Positions 54,167-64,000 of a stretch of DNA of 64,000 nt are shown here, piece by piece; position 1 is the first letter of the stretch; the number at the start of each line of letters is the position of its first letter. Made by a program: the position numbers and the translations under genes. Source of the DNA: Escherichia phage Ecwhy_1; sequence record MH791411.1. One strand, written 5' to 3'. The notes beneath the pieces are model-generated. The model was not told where the DNA came from. It did not search any database and saw only the letters and a program-made list of their open reading frames with translations.

Positions 54167-54373
54167 TTACTTCCTATATATAAGCATTAACATATAGTAG
54201 TACTGATTATGCTGTACATTCTCTTTAATATTATAAGGGTCTATAGCAATCTCGGTACATCTGTTAAATGCATATCTATTAAATGCCAGTACTATTATAG
54301 ATCTAATCCATGCTTGGTCAGTCGGTGGTAGTTTACTTATATAGTACTCTTTATAGTTTTTTATGTTCTGCAT
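54167..54373 (-). CDS. Fam-C minigene
   Basis: KEYY N-terminus, LIYRK C-terminus. Confidence 0.5.
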   Translation of the reverse strand: MQNIKNYKEYYISKLPPTDQAWIRSIIVLAFNRYAFNRCTEIAIDPYNIKENVQHNQYYYMLMLIYRK

Positions 54374-54384
54374 AGTATACCTTA

Positions 54385-54576
54385 TTATTTCAAAGTACCA
54401 TATAGTACTCTTAATAGGAAGTAGTACGTATTAGAGATATCATTAGTAGTTAAAACAATCTTTGTACACATATTAAATTCGTATTGAGTCATTGCCAGGG
54501 GGATTAAATTGTTAACCCATGCTTGTTCGTTTTCTTTTAGTTTACTTATATAGAAATCTTTATGTTCTTTATTCAT
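54385..54576 (-). CDS. Fam-C minigene
   Basis: MNKEHKDFY ... LRVLYG. Confidence 0.5.
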   Translation of the reverse strand: MNKEHKDFYISKLKENEQAWVNNLIPLAMTQYEFNMCTKIVLTTNDISNTYYFLLRVLYGTLK

Positions 54577-54778
54577 ATAGGAATAGTATACCTATGATGC
54601 CGGAGTACATATTAGTACTGTTATTATTGTCGTTTGCGTTTAAAGTCATTTGAATACAATTATTGTAGCATACTCTGCCGAAATAAGTATCAGTACTTAA
54701 AGGTGCTGTAGTCCTTAGAAACATTTGTTCTGTGGGGCTGAGGTGTTTGGAGTAGAATTCTTTATGTTCTTTATTCAT
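54569..54778 (-). CDS. Fam-C minigene
   Basis: MNKEHKEFY; near-duplicate of 55152..55358. Confidence 0.55.
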   Translation of the reverse strand: MNKEHKEFYSKHLSPTEQMFLRTTAPLSTDTYFGRVCYNNCIQMTLNANDNNNSTNMYSGIIGILFLYE

Positions 54779-54783
54779 ATTAG

Positions 54784-54969
54784 TTAGTGTCTGTATATAA
54801 GTAATAGTAAGAATACGTACTGCACCTGTTCATCTTTAGTATTGAGTACTGTACGTATTGCGTCATGGAACAAGAATATAGTACTTGGGTCATTAGAATT
54901 TAAGGGGTTTACGGGGACGGCGTGTTTGTAGTTCCCTTTAACAAATTGTGTGTAGTATTCTCTATGCAT
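54784..54969 (-). CDS. Fam-C minigene
   Basis: MHREYY ... LLLIYRH. Confidence 0.5.
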   Translation of the reverse strand: MHREYYTQFVKGNYKHAVPVNPLNSNDPSTIFLFHDAIRTVLNTKDEQVQYVFLLLLIYRH

Positions 54970-54970
54970 A

Positions 54971-55159
54971 TCAGTACCTATATATTAGGGCGAGAATGTA
55001 GTACAGTTTATATGTATTATAATCTGGGTTGATAGCACATAGTGTGTGGTAGTGGAATTGTTTGGTATTTTTCTTATCCTTGATATCTATTGGGTTTAGT
55101 GGTATAAGCATTTGGGAGTTTAGTTCCAGATGGTTTAAGTAGAATTCTTTGTTATTCAT
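54971..55159 (-). CDS. Fam-C minigene
   Basis: MNNKEFY ... LALIYRY. Confidence 0.5.
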   Translation of the reverse strand: MNNKEFYLNHLELNSQMLIPLNPIDIKDKKNTKQFHYHTLCAINPDYNTYKLYYILALIYRY

Positions 55160-55358
55160 AGAAGAATATTAGTCCCATTACGCCTGAGTACTGAATATTT
55201 TTGTTATTGTTTTCTAAAGCTTCTAGAGTAATACGTATACAATTATTAAAGCAATCTCTGGCGTGTGGTGTATCTAAACTTAAAGGTGATACACTCCTTA
55301 GAAACATTTGTTCTGATGCACTGAGGTGTTTGGTGTAAAATTCTTTCTGTTCGTTCAT
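55152..55358 (-). CDS. Fam-C minigene
   Basis: MNEQKEFYTKHLSASEQMFLR. Confidence 0.55.
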   Translation of the reverse strand: MNEQKEFYTKHLSASEQMFLRSVSPLSLDTPHARDCFNNCIRITLEALENNNKNIQYSGVMGLIFFYE

Positions 55359-55368
55359 ATTGGCCTCT

Positions 55369-55557
55369 TTAGTACACGAAAGCTAGGTACAGGGTATGAT
55401 ACAGTACTCGATGATAGCTATCAAAATCTAGTATACATGCTTTAGTGCACATAGTAAAGTACACTTTATCGTTTTGAGCATTGATACCGCGAGGTTTATC
55501 TAATAGATTAGTACTGAGGTACATTGGGAAATATTTTGTGTAGTATTCTTTATGCAT
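55369..55557 (-). CDS. Fam-C minigene
   Basis: trimmed to MHKEYYTKYF. Confidence 0.45.
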   Translation of the reverse strand: MHKEYYTKYFPMYLSTNLLDKPRGINAQNDKVYFTMCTKACILDFDSYHRVLYHTLYLAFVY

Positions 55558-55558
55558 A

Positions 55559-55747
55559 TTAGTACCTGAATATAAGTAGGATAGTGTTATATAATTGGTC
55601 ATAGCTACTACTATTTTCTATACTGCGTTCTATGCAATTATTGAATCCCAGTACTGCCAAATCGTTATCCAGGGGGACTTTATATCTGGCGTAGTGTTCA
55701 AAAATACTGGGGAGAAATTGTGTGTAGTATTCTTTGTGGTTGTTCAT
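55559..55747 (-). CDS. Fam-C minigene
   Basis: MNNHKEYY ... LLIFRY. Confidence 0.5.
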   Translation of the reverse strand: MNNHKEYYTQFLPSIFEHYARYKVPLDNDLAVLGFNNCIERSIENSSSYDQLYNTILLIFRY

Positions 55748-55748
55748 A

Positions 55749-55940
55749 TTAGTACTTATATATTAGTAAAAGGATGTGATACAGTACTCTATTATAGTCC
55801 TCAATATCTATCGAGGATTTAGTGCACTTAATGAAATAGTCTTTTTCGTAGTCTTTTTCTATACTCAATTGTTTTGTTGGTACAAGGTGTTGGAGATACA
55901 TTGGGAGTTTCTCTATGTAGTATTCTTTGTGGTTATTCAT
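55749..55940 (-). CDS. Fam-C minigene
   Basis: MNNHKEYY ... LLLIYKY. Confidence 0.5.
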   Translation of the reverse strand: MNNHKEYYIEKLPMYLQHLVPTKQLSIEKDYEKDYFIKCTKSSIDIEDYNRVLYHILLLIYKY

Positions 55941-55948
55941 ATTATGTG

Positions 55949-56122
55949 TTATTTCGTGAAAACAAGGGTTAGTACTGCATAGTACAAGTCATACGTATCT
56001 TTAGGGTTAATAGCACCTTTAATACATTCTTTCATTACTTCATTATAGATAATTTTAGTACTGAATGTATTGGATGTTACTATATCGGAATTAAGGTACG
56101 AGAGGTAGAATTCTTTATACAT
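55949..56122 (-). CDS. Fam-C minigene
   Basis: trimmed to MYKEFYLSYL. Confidence 0.45.
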   Translation of the reverse strand: MYKEFYLSYLNSDIVTSNTFSTKIIYNEVMKECIKGAINPKDTYDLYYAVLTLVFTK

Positions 56123-56774
56123 AGTTTGTAATATACGTAATGAGGTGATGAAATTTCTTATCAGTACTGATAAGTTCCTGTACATGTTTTGTTAGTTTGT
56201 ACGCGTTTTTATAGAGTCCTGGATTATCGATTACAGTACTGTACATGAATTCTTCTTCCTCGGATAATTCTTTGTGTTCTAGTTCTTTGAGGAATTGCAG
56301 TACTGTATCAGTTTCGTTAGTACGTTGCTTTTGGAAGAAGTGCATGTTATCGTGTATTTTTTCTGAACCCATGCAGTACATATCGCCGATTTGGAATTGT
56401 GCAGTACTGATATCATGGGTGCTATTACAATTCCCGAAGAAGTATACATTCCCGAAAGATAGAATTATAGTGCACGGGATATTATCCATGTGTATATAGA
56501 TAGATGCATTCTTTAGTGCTTTTGTGCTGGTATTAGTACTCAATACTTTTAAATCAGTATTATAGATATTAATAAAAGCAAGAGCTATATTATTTTTCTT
56601 CAAGTACGATTTGAGGTTCTTAGATACGAGAACATTTCTGGATTTTTTCTTTTTATTTCGTTTCTTTAGTACATTTGGGTCGTAAGTATATACTGGTGTA
56701 AAAGATTCTGCTTGAATACTGTTGAGGTATTTAAAGTGCTTAAGGTATTGTTTACTGTGTGCATTAAGTTTCAT
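56115..56774 (-). CDS. Fam-A-like protein (outlying copy)
   Basis: core SEEEEFMYSTV near C-terminus. Confidence 0.5.
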   Translation of the reverse strand: MKLNAHSKQYLKHFKYLNSIQAESFTPVYTYDPNVLKKRNKKKKSRNVLVSKNLKSYLKKNNIALAFINIYNTDLKVLSTNTSTKALKNASIYIHMDNIPCTIILSFGNVYFFGNCNSTHDISTAQFQIGDMYCMGSEKIHDNMHFFQKQRTNETDTVLQFLKELEHKELSEEEEFMYSTVIDNPGLYKNAYKLTKHVQELISTDKKFHHLITYITNYV

Positions 56775-56785
56775 TTGGTTTTCCT

Positions 56786-56965
56786 TTATACAGATGCGAG
56801 AGCGAGGATTTCCCTGAAGGGATTATCTTTTGTTAGTGCGTGATGAATGCAGCTATTGAGATTAATATTTTTAGTACTGTTAGTTGCCAGGTTGTAGTAC
56901 TTCACGAAGGTGTCGTACATGAAACGGTCTTTAATGCTTATGTGTTCTATATAGTATTCTTGCAT
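56786..56965 (-). CDS. Fam-C minigene (59 aa)
   Basis: hand-translated MQEYYIEHI ... ILALASV; below track size cutoff. Confidence 0.4.
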   Translation of the reverse strand: MQEYYIEHISIKDRFMYDTFVKYYNLATNSTKNINLNSCIHHALTKDNPFREILALASV

Positions 56966-56973
56966 ATTATTCC

Positions 56974-57162
56974 TTACATAGAGATGAGTTTCAGTACATC
57001 AATATACATATAACGTTCAGATGACATTACACGGGTAGTGATAATCTCAATCGATATATTTTTAATTCCATGTGCAGATGATTGATGGTGCTGAATAAAT
57101 GAGTTGTGCATACTTTGTTCTATGTGGTTTAGTTTATTGAAGTAGTACTCAAAAGTGTTCAT
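56974..57162 (-). CDS. Fam-C minigene
   Basis: MNTFEYYFNKL ... VLKLISM. Confidence 0.5.
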   Translation of the reverse strand: MNTFEYYFNKLNHIEQSMHNSFIQHHQSSAHGIKNISIEIITTRVMSSERYMYIDVLKLISM

Positions 57163-57168
57163 GTCTAC

Positions 57169-57348
57169 CTTAGATTGAGATTAGTTTAAGTACTTCTCTG
57201 TACGTGTACTTTTCGTTTTGTGCTTCTACTGTACATGATAGTAGGTATCGTTTTTTATCTCTTTTGTTCCCGACTGTGTAGTACCTTTGGAATTTATTAT
57301 AGTTGTATCTATCTTTGTGCTGGAGGTTATAGATATAGAATTCTTGCA
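57169..57348 (-). CDS. Fam-C minigene (59 aa)
   Basis: hand-translated MQEFYIYNL ... YTYREVLKLISI; coordinates approximate. Confidence 0.4.
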
Positions 57349-57357
57349 TAGAGTACC

Positions 57358-57543
57358 TTATATTGCTATCAGTTTGAGTACTTCAATATATGTGCGGTAC
57401 TCTGCTTTAATTAAATTTGTACACACTGTAAGGGAATTTCTTTGTATAAGTTTATTGCCGCTTTTATACGCATTTCTCCACACATAGAGATGAGATCTTT
57501 CAGGCATAGATAGTTTATTTGTATAGTACTCAAATGTATTCAT
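57358..57543 (-). CDS. Fam-C minigene
   Basis: MNTFEYYTNKL ... VLKLIAI. Confidence 0.5.
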   Translation of the reverse strand: MNTFEYYTNKLSMPERSHLYVWRNAYKSGNKLIQRNSLTVCTNLIKAEYRTYIEVLKLIAI

Positions 57544-57551
57544 ATATTACC

Positions 57552-57734
57552 TCAAATAGAGATTAGTTTAAGTACTTCTCTGTATGTGTACTTTTCGTTT
57601 TGTGCATCTCTTGTGCTTGTATATAGGTATCCTCGACGATATTTGTTGCTCCCGTTCTTGTAGTTGAATTCGAACTTATTGTAGATGAATCTATCGCCAG
57701 GCTGTAATTTACTTAAGTACAATTCAATGCTCAT
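57552..57734 (-). CDS. Fam-C minigene
   Basis: trimmed to MSIELYLSKL; C-terminus YTYREVLKLISI. Confidence 0.5.
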   Translation of the reverse strand: MSIELYLSKLQPGDRFIYNKFEFNYKNGSNKYRRGYLYTSTRDAQNEKYTYREVLKLISI

Positions 57735-57744
57735 AGTATTCTCT

Positions 57745-57930
57745 TTACATATCAATAAGTTTCAGTACTGCTCTGTACGTGTACTTAGTTGTTAGTGCTT
57801 CTTTTATAGCAATACAGAAGTAATGTTGTTTGTCTCTTATACTACCGCGTTTGTAGTACCATACATTGGAGTTGTGGGTGTACTTGTCCCTGTCGGATAG
57901 ATTTAGGTAATAGTATAATATATGATTCAT
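57745..57930 (-). CDS. Fam-C minigene
   Basis: MNHILYYYLNL ... VLKLIDM. Confidence 0.5.
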   Translation of the reverse strand: MNHILYYYLNLSDRDKYTHNSNVWYYKRGSIRDKQHYFCIAIKEALTTKYTYRAVLKLIDM

Positions 57931-58139
57931 GGTAATGTAATTAGCCTTATTATGTTAAAGTACTCGGTCCCTGGTACACCTTGTAGAATATTATCAACTA
58001 CATTTTCTTGGTGCAGGATTAATACATTCGGTGCGGTTCTTTTAAGGTTTTTTAAAGTACTGTATTCTTGTTTAAGGATGAACTGTACATCTTTAGGGAG
58101 AATATCTAAGTAGTACTGGTGTATGTTCATAGTTTTCAT
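57927..58139 (-). CDS. Fam-C minigene
   Basis: QYYLDILP ... IIRLITLP. Confidence 0.5.
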   Translation of the reverse strand: MKTMNIHQYYLDILPKDVQFILKQEYSTLKNLKRTAPNVLILHQENVVDNILQGVPGTEYFNIIRLITLP

Positions 58140-58150
58140 ATAGTACTCTT

Positions 58151-58336
58151 TTAGAACTTAAAGATGAGGTTCATGATAGATAAGTACTTAGTTTCAGGAA
58201 ATTGATGTTCTATTGCATAACGTGTCTCCAGTCTGAAGTCAAATTTATAAAAGGGACTATTCATATCCATAGGTTCATTGGGAAATGAATCTCTGTATTG
58301 TTTGTGCAGCTTACTACAGTAGAATTCTTTATACAT
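58151..58336 (-). CDS. Fam-C minigene
   Basis: MYKEFYCSKL ... MNLIFKF. Confidence 0.5.
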   Translation of the reverse strand: MYKEFYCSKLHKQYRDSFPNEPMDMNSPFYKFDFRLETRYAIEHQFPETKYLSIMNLIFKF

Positions 58337-58337
58337 A

Positions 58338-58550
58338 TTAGTGCTCGATTAAAAGGGTTAGGATGTAATAGTATTGCATACTTTCTACCCCTTGTACAGC
58401 ATTTCTTATTTTATTATTCCTGTACGAGTTCAAGAGTTTAGGACAATGTTTGAAGTTTATATAATTATTTTGTGTATACAGTAGGCTTTCTCGTAGACCT
58501 TTTGTTGGTAGTGCATCGATGTAGTACTGTTCAATGTTCATAGTGTTCAT
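58338..58550 (-). CDS. Fam-C minigene
   Basis: EQYYIDALP ... LTLLIEH. Confidence 0.5.
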   Translation of the reverse strand: MNTMNIEQYYIDALPTKGLRESLLYTQNNYINFKHCPKLLNSYRNNKIRNAVQGVESMQYYYILTLLIEH

Positions 58551-58774
58551 AGAGCTACCAGTACTAAGATTTTTGATAATTGTTTGTTTCTATCCCCGCA
58601 GATGTTGTTGTGTAAAATGCTCACTACAAGGGTATCAAGTGCATTGTTCAGCATAAGGTTACATCCAGTACTGTTATATTTTTTTAGCTCAATTAGCCAC
58701 GAACAATCCGCGAGAAATTTCCCGTACTCTAGTTCATTTAGCGTATTAATGTAGTACTTAAGTGTAGTTGTCAT
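58547..58774 (-). CDS. Fam-C-like minigene (first of minus-strand block)
   Basis: LKYYINTL ... ILVLVAL; upstream region is divergent with plus-strand block. Confidence 0.45.
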   Translation of the reverse strand: MTTTLKYYINTLNELEYGKFLADCSWLIELKKYNSTGCNLMLNNALDTLVVSILHNNICGDRNKQLSKILVLVAL

Positions 58775-58845
58775 GTGTAGTTCTCCTTATATTCCTTCTA
58801 TAGTACACCAGTACTGAAAGGATGTCAAGGGTTTTGTTTATGGGG

Positions 58846-58853
58846 TATAAATA
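58846..58853 (+). promoter_or_regulatory. TATAAATA box (T4-late-promoter-like) upstream of first RCC1-like gene
   Basis: TATAAATA about 28 nt before ATG, followed by AAAGGAG SD; no -35 hexamer. Confidence 0.35.
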
Positions 58854-58880
58854 TGATATAATGAATAAAGGAGAAGAAAT

Positions 58881-60029
58881 ATGTTACCTTTTGTTAGAAT
58901 GTTTGATTATGGGAATGAAGCACCTACCAACTCTGGGCGTTTTAAAATATATTCCAGTGATTCTATGTATCTTCATGATACTTATACTGACAAGTTGTAT
59001 GCATCTTCTGCGACGAATTGGGGTACTGGTACAGGTGTAGCATCGAGTAAATTTATTCTTTGTGCGGAGAATGTTAAACGAGTTCTATTGGAAGATAACA
59101 GTAGTGATTGTCAATTGTATGAAGAGAAAGGTACTGGAAAAGTTTTTATCACTGGTAACACGAAGGCATTCACTGGTGTAACTGATAGAAAAACTTTGTG
59201 GACGGACTGTACTACGTGGATAACATCAAGTGGTATTAATGTTTCTGATATAAAATACATGAGTAGTTTTTATGATATGAAGGTGAATTTGATAACAAAC
59301 GATGGTACATTGTATTGTTGTGGAGCTAACAATATATCGAACATATCATCATTTGGTGATGGCACAAACATTAATTCTTTTAACACATTCAAAAGAGTAG
59401 ATACTATAACTTCGGTTAAAAAGGCAGTTGGTAACATTTATTTGCGAGAAGATAATACTTTATGGGGTTGTGGTTTTAACTATTACTACCAGTTGGGCAC
59501 GGGTAATCAAACTTCTATTACTGGGGTGACGATGATTTCTTCGGATGTTATAGATTTTAATGTAAGTTATCAGAGTACATTTTTTATCAAATCGGATAAT
59601 AATTTGTACGCTTGTGGTAAACAGTTCGGTGCACAATATGGGAACGAATTTGGTACAGGTGGTACTTCTACATCTACAGATATACAATATAAAACTCCCA
59701 CATTATTGAGTGCAGGTGTTTATAGTTTATATACTTGTGTTGGTAACATGGCATCACATATAGTTAAAGGTGATGAAGTACTTTATGCATCTGGAAGCAA
59801 CTCGTCTGGTCAATTAGGTGTTGGTAATAATAATAATCAGTACTCCTATACTCCTTCATATACTTCGTTTAATACCTCTTGTAATTTGGTACGCACCCCA
59901 TCTGGTTCACTTATACTTACTGATACTGGAAAATTATATTATTGTGGCCTTGCAATAGTAGTAATGGGTGGTATTTCTGGACAGAACGTTCTTAATTATA
60001 CAGAAGTCGATATGTCATTTTTGCAGTAA
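58881..60029 (+). CDS. RCC1-like repeat (beta-propeller) protein
   Basis: seven or so GxNxxGQLGxG-type repeats; N-terminus MLPFVRMFDYGN shared with downstream paralogs. Confidence 0.7.
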   Translation: MLPFVRMFDYGNEAPTNSGRFKIYSSDSMYLHDTYTDKLYASSATNWGTGTGVASSKFILCAENVKRVLLEDNSSDCQLYEEKGTGKVFITGNTKAFTGVTDRKTLWTDCTTWITSSGINVSDIKYMSSFYDMKVNLITNDGTLYCCGANNISNISSFGDGTNINSFNTFKRVDTITSVKKAVGNIYLREDNTLWGCGFNYYYQLGTGNQTSITGVTMISSDVIDFNVSYQSTFFIKSDNNLYACGKQFGAQYGNEFGTGGTSTSTDIQYKTPTLLSAGVYSLYTCVGNMASHIVKGDEVLYASGSNSSGQLGVGNNNNQYSYTPSYTSFNTSCNLVRTPSGSLILTDTGKLYYCGLAIVVMGGISGQNVLNYTEVDMSFLQ

Positions 60030-60037
60030 ATTAATAT

Positions 60038-60062
60038 GCCAGTACTTGATACTGGCTTTTTT
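60038..60062 (+). terminator. rho-independent terminator
   Basis: GCCAGTActtgaTACTGGC hairpin plus T6. Confidence 0.65.
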
Positions 60063-60096
60063 GATTAAATATAGTATAATGAATAAAGGAGGAAAT

Positions 60097-61206
60097 ATGT
60101 TACCTTTTGTAAGAATGGTTAAGTACGGGAATATTGCACCAGTACCGAAAAAAATAAAGAAAGTTATAGCAGGATATGATAATTTATATGTACTATATGG
60201 TGATGGTTCGCTATATGGTTGTGGAATCAATAACTATCAACAGTTAAATATTGATGGAACTGCTACACAAAATAATTGGGTACTAATTACCAATGGTGTT
60301 AGTAATGCATGGGCTGGTGGATACAATATTTTATATTTGAAAGAAGATAAATTTATAATGCACGGAACTAATGTCTCATTAGGTTTAGGAAATACTACAA
60401 TTCCATTAGGTGGAGTAGATGTAACTTCTTCATTCCCAGATATCTCTAATATTAAAATGATATCCATTGGTTTTGATTCAATGCACTATGTTAGTGCTGA
60501 TGGTACAACTGTATATGGAAGAGGTATGAACACAAATGGTTCTGTTGGTTCAGGTAGTACTTACTCACAGAGTACTTTCACTTCAGTACTGAATAATGGA
60601 ACTAATCAGGTTATTGATATATTTGGTAACGTTAATAATACAGTGCTTCTAACATCGAATGGTGAGCTTCGAGCATGTGGGACAAGTGCTTATGGTTCTA
60701 TAGGAAATGAAACTGGTAAGTGGACATCGTTTGGTTTAAAATTATCTGGCACTAAAATAATGGGTGGTAATGGGTATAGTACGCTTGCATATACAAATTC
60801 GGGAATGTACCACTCAGGGTGGCAGTTAAATGGGGAACTAGGAAATGGTTTAGATACTAACGTACAGGTATATCCATTTCAATTTAACTCTAAAACGATA
60901 GATAGCAAGATAGATAAAATTGCCAAATCATCATCTGGGTCATATGTTAACATGTACTCAACAACAGAAGGAAAGATATATACGACAGGTTCGTTTGGTA
61001 AAAACGGGTCAACTACTGCATTGAATTTGTTCACCAATACATTAACACTTATAAATTACAATCCAGATACCGCCTCGTTGTATACGTGCACAAACTTCAG
61101 TGTTGTGTATGATGGTAATGAAACTATTGCTGTAAGTGGTAGTCCTACATATGTACCAGGGGGCGTTGCCGCTAATAGATGGACTACAATTCCATTACCC
61201 AAGTAA
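60097..61206 (+). CDS. RCC1-like repeat protein
   Basis: track ORF 59968..61206 trimmed to ATG after AAAGGAGG SD; N-terminus MLPFVRMVKYGN. Confidence 0.7.
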   Translation: MLPFVRMVKYGNIAPVPKKIKKVIAGYDNLYVLYGDGSLYGCGINNYQQLNIDGTATQNNWVLITNGVSNAWAGGYNILYLKEDKFIMHGTNVSLGLGNTTIPLGGVDVTSSFPDISNIKMISIGFDSMHYVSADGTTVYGRGMNTNGSVGSGSTYSQSTFTSVLNNGTNQVIDIFGNVNNTVLLTSNGELRACGTSAYGSIGNETGKWTSFGLKLSGTKIMGGNGYSTLAYTNSGMYHSGWQLNGELGNGLDTNVQVYPFQFNSKTIDSKIDKIAKSSSGSYVNMYSTTEGKIYTTGSFGKNGSTTALNLFTNTLTLINYNPDTASLYTCTNFSVVYDGNETIAVSGSPTYVPGGVAANRWTTIPLPK

Positions 61207-61212
61207 TACTAT

Positions 61213-61245
61213 GCCAGTACTTGAGTACTGGCTTTTCTTTTTGAT
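61213..61245 (+). terminator. rho-independent terminator
   Basis: GCCAGTACttgaGTACTGGC hairpin plus T-run. Confidence 0.65.
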
Positions 61246-61277
61246 TAAATATAGTATAATGAATAAAGGAGGGAAAT

Positions 61278-62459
61278 ATGTTACCTTTTGTTAGAATGTT
61301 TGATTATGGGAACGTCGTTGAGCCACCTGTGGGTACACGTTATACCTGTAGTGACTATAGTGCGACTTATAGTTTAATAAAGGATGGTGTGTTATATGTA
61401 TCTGGGATGAATAACTATTATCAGTTAGGTAATAACACTAACGTAACACGTTACAACGAGTGGTTAAAAGTTCCAGAGACTGATAGTGTTAAGTTTTGTA
61501 GTACTGGTTATAGTCAGACAATGTATCTGACTAACAATGGTAGGATAATGATAGCAGGTGAAGATCCTACTTCCAGTGCGACGGCGGTAAGTGTAAAGGT
61601 TTGGACGGATATAACTTCTAGATTTAGTGCAGTTGATACTAAAAAGATTGTTTATATTTCAATAGAACGTTATGGTGTAATGATGATCATGGAAGATGGT
61701 TCAGTATGGGCGTGTGGTGTTGATAATACTGGTTGGAGTGGACAAGGGAGTAAGACTGTTGGTTTCTTTACTTTCAGACAAATATACACCGGAAGTGCAG
61801 GAAGTGCAGTTGCTTGTACTGCTGGTACTGGCACTTCGAGGATTCTATTAGTTGATGGTACAATATTGTCCTCTGGTACTAATACATATCATCAATGTAA
61901 TGCTAGTACTGATCTGGCTGTTCTAACATACACTGAATCATTCCCTGGGGTTGATCCTTCATTGATATATCAAGTCAAGATGTGTAATAACAACTGTATT
62001 ATATTCTTGAGTGATAAGAGATATTATGGTACTGGTTGGGGGAGTTTTGGTGCTTTGGGTGATGGTGATATTTCGGGTTCGAATAATAAATTCTATGCTG
62101 GTACATTGTCAGTTGCTCCTAAAAACATGCGTGCTTATATGTCGTATCTATGTAGTTCTGCTGGGGATTCTAGTATGTACATAGGCGATGATAATTTCAT
62201 ATACACCTGCGGTTATCGTGGGAGGAACTTAATAAATGCCACTACAGATATTGGGACGTTCACGAAATGCATTCAAAGTGCACAAGGATACAAGAATGGA
62301 CTTATATATAGTGGGAATTATTGTGCTGTAGTTTTTGATCCAGATTTGGGTTCAGGAATGACATATGCGGTTTCATCACCAAAAGTGAATGCACCAGCAC
62401 CACAGGCGAGTGTTCCAACATTGGGTATGAGTTCGTTACAAGCTATTATTTTACCATAA
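61278..62459 (+). CDS. RCC1-like repeat protein
   Basis: N-terminus MLPFVRMFDYGN; RCC1-type Gly-rich repeats; AAAGGAGGG SD. Confidence 0.7.
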   Translation: MLPFVRMFDYGNVVEPPVGTRYTCSDYSATYSLIKDGVLYVSGMNNYYQLGNNTNVTRYNEWLKVPETDSVKFCSTGYSQTMYLTNNGRIMIAGEDPTSSATAVSVKVWTDITSRFSAVDTKKIVYISIERYGVMMIMEDGSVWACGVDNTGWSGQGSKTVGFFTFRQIYTGSAGSAVACTAGTGTSRILLVDGTILSSGTNTYHQCNASTDLAVLTYTESFPGVDPSLIYQVKMCNNNCIIFLSDKRYYGTGWGSFGALGDGDISGSNNKFYAGTLSVAPKNMRAYMSYLCSSAGDSSMYIGDDNFIYTCGYRGRNLINATTDIGTFTKCIQSAQGYKNGLIYSGNYCAVVFDPDLGSGMTYAVSSPKVNAPAPQASVPTLGMSSLQAIILP

Positions 62460-62466
62460 CATTATA

Positions 62467-62500
62467 CCAGTACTGAAATACGTACTGGTATTTTTTTTGT
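62467..62500 (+). terminator. rho-independent terminator
   Basis: CCAGTACtgaaatacGTACTGG hairpin plus T8. Confidence 0.6.
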
Positions 62501-62535
62501 AAATACATTATAATTATTATATGGAGATTTTAGTT

Positions 62536-63729
62536 ATGTTACCTTTTGCAAGAATGGTTAAGTACGGGAATAAACTGCCTATTCCTGAACCAGTTGAGTT
62601 CACTGATGTTTTACAGCAACATTATACTAATGCTATGTATCTACATAAGCCCACGAATACACTATACGGTTATGGTGGTAATAACTTGAGCCAATTAGGT
62701 CTAGGGAATCAATCGGCAGTTTCAACTTTTACAGTACTGGCAACGCACTGTGCAGCCTTTTGGTTAGGCGTTCATGGATCATTGATGATTGACTTGGATA
62801 ATAGAATATATTTCACAGGGAATACAGTAGCATTCCCCGATTATGGAGATGCAACTCCAGTTAATGGTTATTTTAGAACATGGACTGATGTTACTGCCGC
62901 ATTTAACAAAATAAATATACACGCTAATTTAATCAAGAGTGTACATATAGGTGAAAGTACTAGAATATTACTACACGATGGAAGAGTCGTTGTTTGTGGT
63001 AAAAATGCAAATGCCGAATGTGGAACAGGTAACCAAAATCCCATTCCAGTACTAACAGTTGTTACTGGTATGGGTGAAGTTTCTCAATTGGCGTGTTCAT
63101 TACAGGGTACGCACTATCTCAAAACAAATAAAGAAGCATGGTTTTGTGGTAAGGATAACTTTGGTGAAAGTGGTGGTGGGACTAGCTCATACGTTTTTAC
63201 TAATAAATTAATACGAACCAACGTCGATTATATAAGTACTACTTATGATGTTACCTGGTGGTTTACTGCCGGTAGGGTGTACTGGAGTGGTAGAAACAAT
63301 TCTGGACAAGCTGGGAATGGTACTACTTCAACTACAAACCAATTAACTACAGTTCAGAATTCACAGGTTATAGTGAATATTAGTGATGGTTTCCTGTGTC
63401 CTAGTAATATGGGTAACTCAACAATTGGTGCACCTATGGCTCAATACCCATCATATGTCAGGAGTGCAGGCATCAATACATATGGTCAAGAAGGGACGGG
63501 AAATACAACAATAATTACTTCGTGGGGGGCGTTTTCTTTAAGTGCGATACAGGGTGGATATGACAATGTTCTTATGGCATCCAAAGACTGGTCCAGAACA
63601 ATAATTATAACTAAAGATTATAAATTATATGCATGTGGGGGCTTTAACGGTTCAGGTAGTAAATTACCGGATGGTACTTACTTAATTAAAACATTAACAT
63701 TAATGCCAACGCAGTTATGGCAACAATAG
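62536..63729 (+). CDS. RCC1-like repeat protein
   Basis: track ORF 62521..63729 trimmed to MLPFARMVKYGN; RCC1-type repeats. Confidence 0.65.
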   Translation: MLPFARMVKYGNKLPIPEPVEFTDVLQQHYTNAMYLHKPTNTLYGYGGNNLSQLGLGNQSAVSTFTVLATHCAAFWLGVHGSLMIDLDNRIYFTGNTVAFPDYGDATPVNGYFRTWTDVTAAFNKINIHANLIKSVHIGESTRILLHDGRVVVCGKNANAECGTGNQNPIPVLTVVTGMGEVSQLACSLQGTHYLKTNKEAWFCGKDNFGESGGGTSSYVFTNKLIRTNVDYISTTYDVTWWFTAGRVYWSGRNNSGQAGNGTTSTTNQLTTVQNSQVIVNISDGFLCPSNMGNSTIGAPMAQYPSYVRSAGINTYGQEGTGNTTIITSWGAFSLSAIQGGYDNVLMASKDWSRTIIITKDYKLYACGGFNGSGSKLPDGTYLIKTLTLMPTQLWQQ

Positions 63730-63737
63730 GAGGAATT

Positions 63738-64000
63738 ATGTTACCTTTTGTAAGACTATTTGATTATGGGAATATTACACCTGGTCCTAAAAATATAATA
63801 AAAGTTGGTGCTTCTACACAAGGTCAATTCGTATTGACTGATTCACATGAATTATATTACATAGGCAGAAATCAAGGTGGTGAATCTGGAAATGGTAATA
63901 AAAACACGGTATCTTCTTGGACATTAGTAAGTGCAGATGTTTCTAATTTTTTCACTGGAGGACGAACACTTGTTATTATTAAAAATGACAATACGATATG
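63738..64000 (+). CDS. RCC1-like repeat protein, partial (continues past window end)
   Basis: AGGAGG SD then ATG; N-terminus MLPFVRLFDYGN; coupled to previous gene. Confidence 0.6.
   Translation, partial: MLPFVRLFDYGNITPGPKNIIKVGASTQGQFVLTDSHELYYIGRNQGGESGNGNKNTVSSWTLVSADVSNFFTGGRTLVIIKNDNTI

What the first reader, a model, noticed from the sequence alone, without database searches (positions are those of the whole stretch)
58775..64000. Strand switch to an array of at least five RCC1-like paralogs with an identical N-terminal dodecapeptide
At about 58.8 kb transcription polarity reverses. The plus strand encodes at least five consecutive 370-410 aa proteins built from RCC1-type Gly-rich repeats (for example YASGSNSSGQLGVGNNNN, WGCGFNYYYQLGTGNQTS), each starting with MLPF(V/A)R(M/L)(F/V)(D/K)YGN. 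The first is preceded by TATAAATA without a -35 element, which matches the T4 late-promoter consensus, and genes 1-3 each end in their own terminator. A conserved N-terminus on otherwise diverged paralogs could be a targeting or assembly tag; paralogous propellers could be alternative host-binding or virion-decoration modules.
Basis: partly seen in the sequence, partly recalled or inferred. Interest (0 to 1): 0.65.

Follow-up and report, generated by a model that had tools for sequence, protein, structure and literature searches.

The report
Shared virion tag on phage propellers
A giant E. coli phage carries a row of highly diverged propeller-shaped protein genes that all start with the same 12-residue peptide, and related phages put this peptide on at least ten unrelated protein types, almost all found in virus particles where tested, so it is probably a "load me onto the virion" tag.

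Summary
From 58,881 the plus strand encodes four complete RCC1-type propeller proteins (382, 369, 393 and 397 aa) and a fifth cut by the window end. They are 22-27% identical overall, yet all begin MLPF(V/A)R(M/L)(F/V)(D/K)YGN. The window is an Asteriusvirus jumbo coliphage, 97.8% identical to fEgEco12, whose array has 15 such genes. The array itself is already annotated and mentioned in the literature.

Four points appear to be new:
- AlphaFold places the tag outside the propeller in two paralogs.
- The same N-terminal tag heads at least ten unrelated protein bodies across Rak2-like jumbo phages: RCC1, Kelch, ConA-like/LamG, Gly-rich and unknown.
- Tag-bearing proteins are strongly enriched in published virion proteomes: 9 of 11 in CBB and 8 of 11 in phAPEC6, including the 95% ortholog of paralog 1.
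- The tag-coding DNA plus a terminator/TAAATA-promoter/RBS cassette is a recombination site. The window lost one whole gene by a crossover inside the tag.

Best reading: a modular virion-attachment tag fused to interchangeable ligand-binding heads, probably surface-displayed. Internal packaging, as with the T4 capsid-targeting sequence, is not excluded. The "DNA condensation" label is name transfer only.

The parts
58775..58880 (.). Divergent intergenic region at the strand switch. It contains CAGTACTG (58809), a G-run, TATAAATA and an RBS.
58846..58853 (+). TATAAATA, containing the clade-conserved TAAATA core. Late-promoter-like, with no -35 element.
   Evidence: It is the only copy in the window, against 13.8 expected. 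The TAAATA core lies upstream of 46 of 77 tag genes, against 1 of 158 control ORFs. The CBB paper predicts ATAAATA as the late promoter of Rak2-like phages.
58868..58873 (+). AAGGAG ribosome-binding site of gene 1
58881..60029 (+). RCC1-like paralog 1 (382 aa). It is 95% identical to phAPEC6 gp549, which was detected in virions by mass spectrometry.
58881..58916 (+). Tag-coding segment of gene 1 (MLPFVRMFDYGN)
   Evidence: AF2 gives pLDDT below 50 for residues 1-16.
60038..60062 (+). Terminator hairpin GCCAGTAC-ttga-TACTGGC plus T-run after gene 1
60066..60096 (+). Cassette TAAATAtagTATAATgaatAAAGGAGgaaat (promoter-like element plus RBS) before gene 2
60097..61206 (+). RCC1-like paralog 2 (369 aa). 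It matches fEgEco12 g594 and is 64% identical to phAPEC6 gp009, which was MS-detected.
61213..61242 (+). Terminator hairpin GCCAGTACttgaGTACTGGC plus T-run after gene 2
61246..61277 (+). Cassette (TAAATA, TATAAT, AAAGGAG) before gene 3. It is of the fEgEco12 g593 type.
61278..61309 (+). Recombination junction. This 32-nt tag-coding stretch is identical in fEgEco12 g593 and g592. Upstream of it the window follows g593; downstream it follows g592. The window therefore lacks g593 precisely.
61278..62459 (+). RCC1-like paralog 3 (393 aa), 100% identical to fEgEco12 g592
62464..62499 (+). Terminator hairpin (10-bp stem) plus T-run after gene 3
62500..62505 (+). TAAATA core before gene 4 (GTAAATAC, the same form as in GAP32)
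62536..63729 (+). RCC1-like paralog 4 (397 aa), 72% identical to phAPEC6 gp002
63738..64000 (+). RCC1-like paralog 5, N-terminal 87 aa only (cut by the window end). It lies 8 nt after gene 4 with no terminator, so it is probably co-transcribed.

Best explanation
Each gene encodes a two-part protein.

Residues 1-12 (M-L-P-F-x-R/I/Q-h-x-x-Y-G-N), followed by a short Pro-rich linker, form a flexible N-terminal tag. This tag docks the protein onto a common acceptor in the virion of Rak2-like jumbo phages. Residues from about 17 onward form a seven-bladed RCC1-type propeller that serves as an exchangeable ligand-binding head.

The genes are expressed late, from TAAATA-type promoters. Most are separate terminator-bounded units. 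The paralogs are loaded at low copy number, roughly ten to a few tens each, so one particle would carry a mixture of different heads.

I favour surface display on capsid or tail decoration or 'hair' structures, acting as auxiliary adhesins. This would be Hoc-like or side-fibre-like.

The repeated unit (terminator, promoter, RBS, tag) also works as a portable recombination site, through which heads are gained, lost and swapped between phages.

**Shown:** the fold; the tag lying outside the fold; the tag on many unrelated bodies; virion association of tag proteins in relatives; a crossover inside the tag.

**Inferred:** that the tag itself causes incorporation; the acceptor; the outside location; binding to host or environmental ligands.
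For: 1. **Fold and tag position.** Two AlphaFold models were made. Paralog 1 has pLDDT 92.7 and paralog 4 has 79.4. Both give a confident propeller, but pLDDT is below 50 for residues 1-16 and for most of residues 1-20 respectively. The best fold matches are UVR8, HERC2 and RCC1.

2. **Selection acts on the protein.** In orthologs of only 38-48% identity the motif M[LI]PF..h..YGN persists. Across genera the Pro, Tyr and Gly codons vary synonymously: CCA 34/CCT 30, TAC 44/TAT 24, GGG 35/GGA 20/GGT 9.

3. **Modularity.** A DNA pattern scan of IMG/VR and inspection of relatives put the tag at residue 1 of at least ten body families with no detectable similarity to one another. These are RCC1, Kelch, RCC1+Kelch, ConA-like/Laminin_G_3 (two above Pfam's cut-off), Gly-rich, and several with no Pfam hit. 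A 30-residue tag profile searched against 1.84 billion proteins returned only 39 hits. In almost all of them the match begins at or within a few residues of the N-terminus. One hit is a Kelch protein carrying the Asteriusvirus form of the tag.

4. **Virion association.**
   - CBB has at least 11 tag genes (CBB_144, 247, 536, 537, 548-554). Nine of them are among the 55 of 554 proteins found in virions, hypergeometric P = 2.4e-8.
   - All six virion proteins that CBB has and GAP32 lacks carry the tag. The CBB authors reasoned that the whisker genes should be among morphological genes absent from GAP32.
   - CBB_144 and CBB_247 sit alone among nrd and recombination genes, so the tag predicts virion association better than gene position does.
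   - In phAPEC6 all 8 detected array proteins carry the tag, P = 2.1e-6.
   - GAP32_001 and GAP32_002 ('virion structural protein') carry it.
   - Four RCC1-like proteins are found in DNA-free ghost particles of three Erwinia phages, with peptide counts like those of the portal protein.

5. **Outside-display precedent.** BFVD fold matches include RCC1-type propellers inside proteins annotated as tail fibre or 'T7 tail fibre N-terminal domain' in Pseudomonas phages Littlefix and PollyC.

6. **Late expression.** TAAATA lies 30-60 nt upstream of 46 of 77 tag genes, against 1 of 158 early-strand ORFs. A gp55-like sigma factor and an ATAAATA late motif are reported for the clade.

7. **Recombination.** The window lacks fEgEco12 g593, and the junction falls inside the 32-nt tag-coding identity. 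The array is patchily conserved among 36 relatives.
Against: - No experiment shows that the tag is necessary or sufficient for incorporation. The link is correlative and comes from relatives, not from this phage.
- The location is unknown. phAPEC6 has an inner body, and its authors proposed the RCC1 proteins for it.
- Globular 25-43 kDa heads cannot by themselves be the 119-nm whiskers.
- GAP32, which was not reported as hairy, also has tag proteins.
- The conservation counts for M-L-P-F and Y-G-N are partly circular, because the IMG/VR scan required them.
- Many Asteriusvirus cassettes are near-duplicates, so the 46 of 77 count is not made of independent events.
- Some Yersinia phage paralogs keep MLPF but lack YGN.
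Confidence: 0.58

Rival explanations
1. The tag is a capsid-targeting sequence like that of the T4 internal proteins. It would bind the scaffolding core, so the propellers and other bodies are packaged inside the head. They would then possibly be ejected with the DNA as inhibitors of host defence proteins.
For: - The logic matches T4 IPI-III and Alt (my own knowledge: Mullaney and Black; Repoila et al. 1994): a roughly 10-residue N-terminal leader shared by unrelated proteins in a hyperplastic locus away from the head genes.
- Rak2-like phages have a T4 gp21-type prohead protease.
- phAPEC6 has an inner body.
- Copy number appears low.
- An RCC1-like propeller, BLIP-II, is a known tight protein inhibitor and appears among the PDB hits.
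Against: - No conserved Glu or (L/I)xE cleavage motif follows the tag. Positions 13-30 are variable, and only 2 of the 5 window proteins have any such triplet.
- The tag has no sequence similarity to the T4 CTS.
- The proteins persist in freeze-thaw ghost particles.
- The bodies are lectin-like or propeller binding domains, typical of fibre tips.
- 40-kDa closed propellers would have to unfold to pass through the tail tube.
Confidence: 0.2
2. As the database names say, these are DNA or chromosome condensation proteins that organise the packaged genome, for example as inner-body components.
For: The annotation 'regulator of chromosome condensation / DNA condensation protein' appears in many records. 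The phAPEC6 paper speculates in this direction.
Against: - The name is transferred from eukaryotic RCC1, which is a Ran exchange factor. Nothing here tests DNA binding.
- The window paralogs have net charge -5 to +2 and pI 5.1-8.2, so they are not polycationic.
- The same tag sits on Kelch and ConA-like lectin bodies.
- Divergence is extreme and gene content varies between 97%-ANI phages. This does not fit a housekeeping packaging role.
- CBB lacks RCC1 genes altogether.
Confidence: 0.06
3. The N-terminal identity is a by-product of DNA-level processes. Candidates are gene conversion or selection on a repeated promoter/RBS/translation-start cassette. The peptide itself would have no function.
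For: Within Asteriusvirus the conservation is continuous from the terminator through codon 12. The two tag variants are almost invariant at the DNA level. A crossover lies inside the tag.
Against: - The peptide persists across genera where the upstream DNA and the synonymous sites differ.
- It persists on isolated genes far from any array (CBB_144 and CBB_247).
- The tag predicts virion association.
Confidence: 0.06
4. The proteins are abundant late non-structural proteins that stick to particles during purification. The tag would serve another purpose, such as chaperone or protease recognition.
For: Peptide counts and coverage are low. Virion proteomes of jumbo phages do contain some non-structural proteins, such as ClpP, PhoH and topoisomerase.
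Against: The proteins were detected in four independent studies, in four genera and with different purification methods. Nine of 11 and 8 of 11 tag proteins were detected, which is far above background.
Confidence: 0.08

Closest known systems
'Regulator of chromosome condensation / DNA condensation protein' paralogs of Rak2-like jumbo phages (PHROG 4219; 121Q_234-248, phAPEC6 gp001-010 and gp549-551, GAP32 gp1)
   Same: This is the same gene family and the same locus. Paralog 1 is 95% identical to phAPEC6 gp549 and paralog 3 is 100% identical to fEgEco12 g592. The existence of multiple copies and their detection in virions are published.
   Different: The papers I could read describe the copies only as RCC1-like duplicates. 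They propose DNA condensation or leave the function open. None of the tag strings occurs in the searchable library. The CBB paper lists only pairwise paralogs (536-537, 549-553), not the shared tag.
Eukaryotic RCC1-like domains (UVR8, HERC1/2 RLDs, RPGR, RCC1) and bacterial BLIP-II
   Same: Seven-bladed propeller fold and RCC1 repeat signature.
   Different: There is no Ran, chromatin or UV-B context. Identity is 13-19%. The phage proteins carry an extra N-terminal tag and are virion-associated.
T4 internal proteins and their capsid-targeting sequence (CTS)
   Same: A short N-terminal leader is shared by otherwise unrelated proteins. The genes lie in a hypervariable locus outside the structural module, the leader region is used for recombination, and the products end up in particles.
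   Different: The sequence is different. No conserved protease site follows the tag. The bodies are large binding domains. The location inside the head is unproven.
Conserved N-terminal anchors of phage receptor-binding proteins (T7 gp17 N-terminal domain; short conserved peptides of second tailspikes in KP34-type Klebsiella phages, from my own knowledge)
   Same: A constant N-terminal attachment element is joined to a variable C-terminal binding domain. RCC1-type propellers occur behind a T7-type fibre anchor in Pseudomonas phages.
   Different: Here the anchor is only about 12 residues. The bodies look monomeric and globular rather than trimeric fibres or spikes. The number of proteins sharing one anchor (11-15 per genome) is much larger.
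PeSL regulatory cassettes of T4-type phages (Arbiol, Comeau and Krisch 2010; my own knowledge)
   Same: Repeated intergenic stem-loop plus promoter units flank variable genes and act as recombination sites for modular shuffling.
   Different: The promoter element is late-type (TAAATA), not early. The repeat extends into the coding sequence, so protein function and recombination site coincide.
T4 Hoc and similar capsid decoration adhesins
   Same: A dispensable, low-affinity binding module displayed on the particle. phAPEC6 shows fibre density at hexamer centres and rings on the sheath.
   Different: Hoc is a single Ig-domain protein that binds through its C-terminal domain. There is no evidence yet that tag proteins occupy those positions.

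Membership tests
RCC1-like domain (RLD) beta-propeller superfamily | RCC1 repeat signature above Pfam's curated cut-offs | tested here: met
   PF13540 or PF00415 score above the gathering score in all four complete paralogs. For paralog 1 the scores are 37.6 against 22 and 36.3 against 21.7. PF25390 matches at E 1e-22 to 1e-30 but stays below its 150-bit cut-off.
RCC1-like domain (RLD) beta-propeller superfamily | Seven-bladed propeller fold over the whole domain | tested here: met
   The AF2 model has pLDDT 92.7 and pTM 0.89. Foldseek aligns it full-length to UVR8, HERC2 and RCC1 at E down to 4e-18 with TM 0.73. The profile against PDB sequences gives E 3e-70.
RCC1 proper (Ran guanine-nucleotide exchange / chromatin binding) | Ran GEF activity, nucleosome or DNA binding | not testable with these tools
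   The host has no Ran. Near-neutral net charge gives no support for DNA binding.
Rak2-like phage RCC1 paralog family (PHROG 4219) | Full-length match to the family profile and orthology to annotated members | tested here: met
   E 5.5e-110 to 2.3e-43. Paralogs 1-4 have their closest orthologs at 64-100% identity in fEgEco12 or phAPEC6.
T4-type capsid-targeting-sequence (CTS) internal proteins | Short conserved N-terminal leader on otherwise unrelated proteins | tested here: met
   The tag sits on at least ten unrelated body families.
T4-type capsid-targeting-sequence (CTS) internal proteins | Sequence similarity to the T4 CTS (MKTYQEFIAE) | tested here: not met
   The tag consensus is MLPFxRhxxYGN.
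T4-type capsid-targeting-sequence (CTS) internal proteins | Conserved prohead-protease site ((L/I)-x-E) directly after the leader | tested here: not met
   Positions 13-30 carry under 2 bits of information with no conserved Glu. Only 2 of the 5 window proteins have any [LIV]xE in the first 30 residues. A gp21 homolog does exist in the clade.
T4-type capsid-targeting-sequence (CTS) internal proteins | Location inside the head and ejection with DNA | not testable with these tools
   The only indirect hint is that the proteins remain in ghost particles.
Phage receptor-binding proteins with a conserved N-terminal anchor | Constant N-terminal attachment element plus variable C-terminal binding domain | tested here: met
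Phage receptor-binding proteins with a conserved N-terminal anchor | Attachment to tail or baseplate, and demonstrated receptor binding | not testable with these tools
   Virion association is known only from published MS.
PeSL-type mobile regulatory cassettes | Repeated intergenic stem-loop plus promoter flanking variable ORFs, used as a recombination site | tested here: met
   Cassette alignment, terminator scan, crossover.
PeSL-type mobile regulatory cassettes | Early (sigma-70) promoter in the cassette | tested here: not met
   There is no -35 element. The conserved element is TAAATA.

The most novel reading that the evidence does not exclude
MLPFxRhxxYGN is a portable, self-sufficient virion-loading signal for the whole Rak2-like jumbo-phage clade. 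Any protein that carries it at its N-terminus would be mounted on one common acceptor. The tag-plus-cassette repeats would let these phages shuffle a library of 11-15 lectin-like or propeller heads. Each particle would then display a mixed, rapidly evolving set of adhesins, possibly the heads of the unexplained 'hairs'. If so, the tag could be used to decorate or load jumbo-phage particles with chosen cargo.
Probability: 0.3. Interest if true: 0.8.

Novelty: new variant of a known kind. Interest (0 to 1): 0.6.

Why it matters
The RCC1-like genes of 121Q-type phages have been carried for a decade under a misleading 'DNA condensation' label. The proteins that make up the hair-like decorations of these giant virions are still unidentified.

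A 12-residue tag that picks out 9 of 11 (CBB) and 8 of 11 (phAPEC6) proteins found in particles has three consequences. It includes every CBB virion protein that the CBB authors' reasoning marked as a whisker candidate.
- It gives a concrete and cheap experiment: tag-GFP loading, tag deletion, protease shaving.
- It offers a way to find the acceptor protein.
- It provides a rule for annotating a whole class of 'hypothetical' proteins in these genomes.

If the tag is sufficient for loading, it would be a display or packaging handle for engineering jumbo phages. The coincidence of a functional peptide with a recombination site is also a clear example of how phages keep binding modules exchangeable.

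Tried and rejected
- **Structural role in the propeller.** I considered that the tag might be the N-terminal strand that closes the propeller ('velcro'). Both AF2 models leave residues 1-16/20 at pLDDT below 50 and outside the fold, so I rejected this.
- **T4-like protease site.** I looked for one after the tag and found none conserved.
- **Peptide-level MS data.** I looked for evidence that the N-terminus is retained. The CBB supplements hold no peptides with MLPF, and no phAPEC6 supplements are held.
- **Prior description of the tag.** Six tag strings gave no paper. NCBIfam has no model for these proteins. Pfam has none for the N-terminus.
- **Sigma-70 promoters in the array.** There were fewer than in shuffles, 19 against 26.5, so they are not informative.
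- **IMG/VR pattern scan.** It also returned about 25 short or RBS-less ORFs on small unrelated contigs. One example is a 352-aa protein, MLPFTPLDGYGN..., on GC-rich 39-72 kb contigs. I treated these as chance matches.
- **Other papers.** The Sharanji paper and the Iyer jumbo-phage review contain nothing on these genes.
- **tRNAs.** None are present in the window.
- **Acceptor protein.** I could not test candidates. The structure tool takes single chains only and accepts only sequences from this window, which holds no structural genes.

Full report
**1. What is in the sequence**

Up to 58,774 every ORF in the window lies on the minus strand. From 58,881 onward the ORFs lie on the plus strand. 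The plus-strand genes are:
- 58881-60029 (382 aa)
- 60097-61206 (369 aa)
- 61278-62459 (393 aa)
- 62536-63729 (397 aa)
- a fifth gene starting at 63738, cut by the window end

The mechanical ORF list extends genes 2 and 4 upstream. The real start in each case is the Met of MLPF, which for genes 1-3 follows an AAGGAG-type ribosome-binding site by 6-7 nt; genes 4 and 5 have GGAG/AGGAGG at other spacings. The five proteins are 22-27% identical to paralog 1. M1, L2, P3, F4, R6, Y10, G11 and N12 are invariant.

**2. Identity of the proteins**

All four complete proteins match Pfam RCC1, RCC1_2 and RCC1-like domain models and PHROG 4219. A profile of the family hits HERC2, UVR8, RPGR and RCC1 chains of the PDB, with a best E-value of 3e-70. 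AlphaFold gives a confident propeller for paralog 1 (pLDDT 92.7, pTM 0.89). Its best fold matches are UVR8 and the HERC and RCC1 propellers (E 4e-18, TM 0.73). Paralog 4 gives the same fold at lower confidence.

**3. Where the window comes from and what is already known**

The region is 97.8% identical to Escherichia phage fEgEco12. It matches 35 other jumbo phages of the 121Q/PBECO4/phAPEC6 group (genus Asteriusvirus), but only patchily. In fEgEco12 the array has 15 tag-bearing genes (14 with the full motif, the last ending in LLFDYGN), 14 of them RCC1-like.

The literature already notes multiple RCC1-like copies in 121Q, PBECO4 and phAPEC6. The phAPEC6 authors suggested a role in DNA organisation. 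The array as such is therefore not new. The common product names, 'chromosome condensation regulator' and 'DNA condensation protein', are transferred from eukaryotic RCC1. The window proteins have net charges of -5 to +2, which gives no support to a DNA-condensing role.

**4. The tag is a separate element under protein-level selection**

In both structure models the first 16-20 residues have pLDDT below 50 and no secondary structure, while the propeller starts at about residue 20. A short Pro-rich stretch follows the tag.

Orthologs only 38-48% identical keep M[LI]PF..h..YGN. Across genera the codons for Pro3, Tyr10 and Gly11 vary synonymously. Part of the conservation count is by construction, because the collection scan required M-L-P-F and Y-G-N. 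The independent evidence comes from three sources:
- homologs found by protein search
- tblastn hits whose alignments start at residue 1 in Salmonella, Klebsiella, Yersinia, Erwinia, Cronobacter and Xanthomonas phages, whereas Clostridioides phage RCC1 proteins align only from residue 30
- neighbours of pattern hits that carry YAN or YGD variants

**5. The tag is modular**

In GAP32, XbC2, CBB and several uncultured contigs of 355-371 kb, the same tag heads proteins with quite different bodies. These bodies include:
- Kelch propellers
- an RCC1+Kelch double propeller
- ConA-like/Laminin_G_3 domains (CBB_548 and CBB_551 score 47.8 and 47.9 bits against a cut-off of 27.6)
- a Gly-rich protein (fEgEco12 g586 and CBB_144)
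- several proteins with no Pfam match

After the first 20 residues were removed, blastp clustering gave at least ten unconnected body families.

The strict DNA pattern found credible genes (RBS present, ORF of at least 100 aa) only on jumbo contigs of 348-378 kb. In 121Q all 11 hits lie in the array. A profile of the 30 N-terminal residues, run against 1.84 billion representative proteins, gave only 39 hits. In almost all of them the match begins at or within a few residues of the N-terminus. One is a 301-aa Kelch-type protein carrying the Asteriusvirus form MLPFVRMFDYGN.

**6. Tag-bearing proteins are virion proteins**

- *phAPEC6.* The eight array proteins detected by MS in purified virions (gp003, 005, 006, 007, 009, 010, 549, 551) all start with the tag. 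gp549 is 95% identical to window paralog 1, and gp009 is 64% identical to paralog 2.
- *CBB.* I found at least 11 tag genes: CBB_144, 247, 536, 537 and 548-554. Nine of them are among the 55 of 554 proteins detected in virions, which gives P = 2.4e-8. The six virion proteins that CBB has and GAP32 lacks all carry the tag. The CBB authors reasoned that the whisker genes should be among the morphological genes absent from GAP32. Two of these six, CBB_144 and CBB_247, are isolated genes among nrdD/nrdG and recombination genes. The tag therefore predicts virion association better than genome position does.
- *GAP32.* GAP32_001 is a published virion protein and GAP32_002 is annotated 'virion structural protein'; both carry the tag.
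- *Erwinia Eneladusviruses.* In three phages, four RCC1-like 'DNA condensation proteins' were detected in freeze-thaw ghost particles. They gave 3-25 peptides, similar to the portal protein at 5-30 and far below the capsid protein at 834-1337. I did not check the tag in those three genomes. The five RCC1 paralogs of Yersinia phage fHe-Yen9-04, from the same genus, all start with MLPF.

These numbers suggest roughly ten to a few tens of copies per paralog. That estimate is rough.

**7. Expression signals**

Genes 1-3 are each followed by a hairpin and a T-run. The hairpin arms are GCCAGTAC/GTACTGGC. Between the terminator and the next ATG lies a nearly invariant cassette, ATTAAATATAGTATAATGAATAAAGGAGGnAAT.

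The T4 octamer TATAAATA occurs once in the whole window, before gene 1, where 13.8 copies are expected. That depletion fits a functional late signal that is avoided elsewhere. However, the octamer is not conserved in fEgEco12, which has GGGGTAAATAT.

What is conserved, including in other genera, is TAAATA, often GGGTAAATA after a T-run, 30-60 nt before the ATG. It occurs at 46 of 77 tag genes against 1 of 158 minus-strand ORFs of the window. Tag genes without it follow another tag gene closely. The CBB paper predicts ATAAATA as the late promoter of this clade and reports a gp55-like sigma factor. No transcript data were found.

**8. The tag is also a recombination site**

The window lacks fEgEco12 gene g593. 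Upstream of the ATG of window gene 3, the sequence follows the 3' end of g594 and the cassette upstream of g593. From codon 12 onward it follows g592. The switch lies within a 32-nt stretch of tag-coding DNA that is identical in g593 and g592.

This is one precise gene-sized deletion, or an insertion in fEgEco12, made by homologous recombination inside the tag. Together with the patchy conservation of the array and the published note that two of the most different proteins between fEgEco12 and its 97% relative are RCC1-like, it shows that the array turns over by cassette exchange.

**9. Mechanism proposed**

The protein is a tag, a linker and a head. The tag docks to a common acceptor in the particle, and the head binds a ligand.

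I favour surface display for three reasons. The heads are lectin-like or propeller binding domains. RCC1-type propellers occur in annotated tail fibres of other phages, including one behind a T7-type fibre anchor. The proteins also stay with DNA-free ghost particles. phAPEC6 shows unassigned fibre density at hexamer centres and three rings on the sheath.

The main rival is internal packaging by a CTS-like leader. That would fit the hypervariable locus and the inner body, but no conserved protease site follows the tag, although a gp21 homolog exists in the clade. Neither location is shown.

**10. Novelty and limits**

The genes and their virion association are published. The following appear undescribed in the library I could search:
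- the shared tag
- its position outside the fold
- its spread over unrelated bodies
- its power to predict virion proteins
- its double role as a recombination site

The kind of element, an N-terminal loading or attachment peptide, is known from T4 internal proteins and from receptor-binding protein anchors. I therefore rate this a new variant of a known kind. All functional evidence comes from relatives and is correlative.

**11. Side observation**

The palindrome CAGTACTG occurs 69 times in the window against 0.62 expected, and AGTACT occurs 282 times against about 21. The same excess is seen in loci of other Rak2-like genera and not in unrelated contigs. The terminator arms of the array are built from this motif. 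I found no report of it.

Noticed in passing
whole window, e.g. 930, 41735, 53885, 58809, 62468; also L001, L002, L003, L004, L022, L027, L044, L048: The palindrome CAGTACTG occurs 69 times in 64 kb, against 0.62 +/- 0.78 expected. AGTACT occurs 282 times against about 21, and GCCAGTAC 23 times against 0.76. GTACTG, CAGTAC and AGTACT are the three most over-represented hexamers. 31 of the 69 copies lie in the roughly 16% of non-coding DNA, and there are none in the 20-24 kb and 28-32 kb bins. The same 10-23-fold excess of AGTACT is present in Asteriusvirus, CBB, GAP32, XbC2, Yen9-04 and uncultured Rak2-like loci, but not in unrelated contigs. Several copies follow TTGAT(G/A)-N12-TATTAT. The motif also forms the arms of the RCC1-array terminators. 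No report was found. It could be a protein-binding, modification or transcription signal.
   Followed up: partly
window 54167-58774, minus strand: A tandem array of at least 16 small paralogous genes (61-78 aa) directly abuts the RCC1 array. The proteins share an N-terminal M..(K/H)E(Y/F)Y..L motif and a C-terminal Y..(L/I)L.LI(Y/F). They have no PHROG hit. [quoted passage not shown]
   Followed up: partly
window 1-64000: TATAAATA is almost absent: 1 copy against 13.8 +/- 3.4 expected on both strands. This is what one would expect if the octamer is an active late-promoter signal that is avoided inside early regions.
   Followed up: partly
window 59968 and 62521; phAPEC6 gp002 (L051 3506); P0054, P0007, P0073: Gene callers often start these genes at an upstream in-frame codon, giving false N-terminal extensions such as MEILV-MLPF, MNKEGN-MLPF and a 36-aa extension in phAPEC6 gp002. 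The tag plus the RBS gives the true start.
   Followed up: yes
L048 (CBB 350196-355464), L049, L050: In Pectobacterium phage CBB, 11 proteins annotated only as 'structural protein' or 'kelch-like protein' share the tag. Two of them (CBB_144, CBB_247) are single genes inserted among nucleotide-metabolism and recombination genes.
   Followed up: yes
window 1-58774: The rest of the window consists entirely of minus-strand genes, mostly small and mostly without known function. GC content steps up from about 0.32 to 0.37-0.41 between 32 and 54 kb, and few ORFs of 100 aa or more lie between 25.9 and 32.3 kb. No tRNA genes are present.
   Followed up: no
L002 (Yersinia phage fHe-Yen9-04 g527c-g531c): Three of the five RCC1 paralogs of this phage keep MLPFPIIS but have NTN or NTK in place of YGN. 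The YGN half of the tag is therefore not obligatory in every lineage.
   Followed up: no
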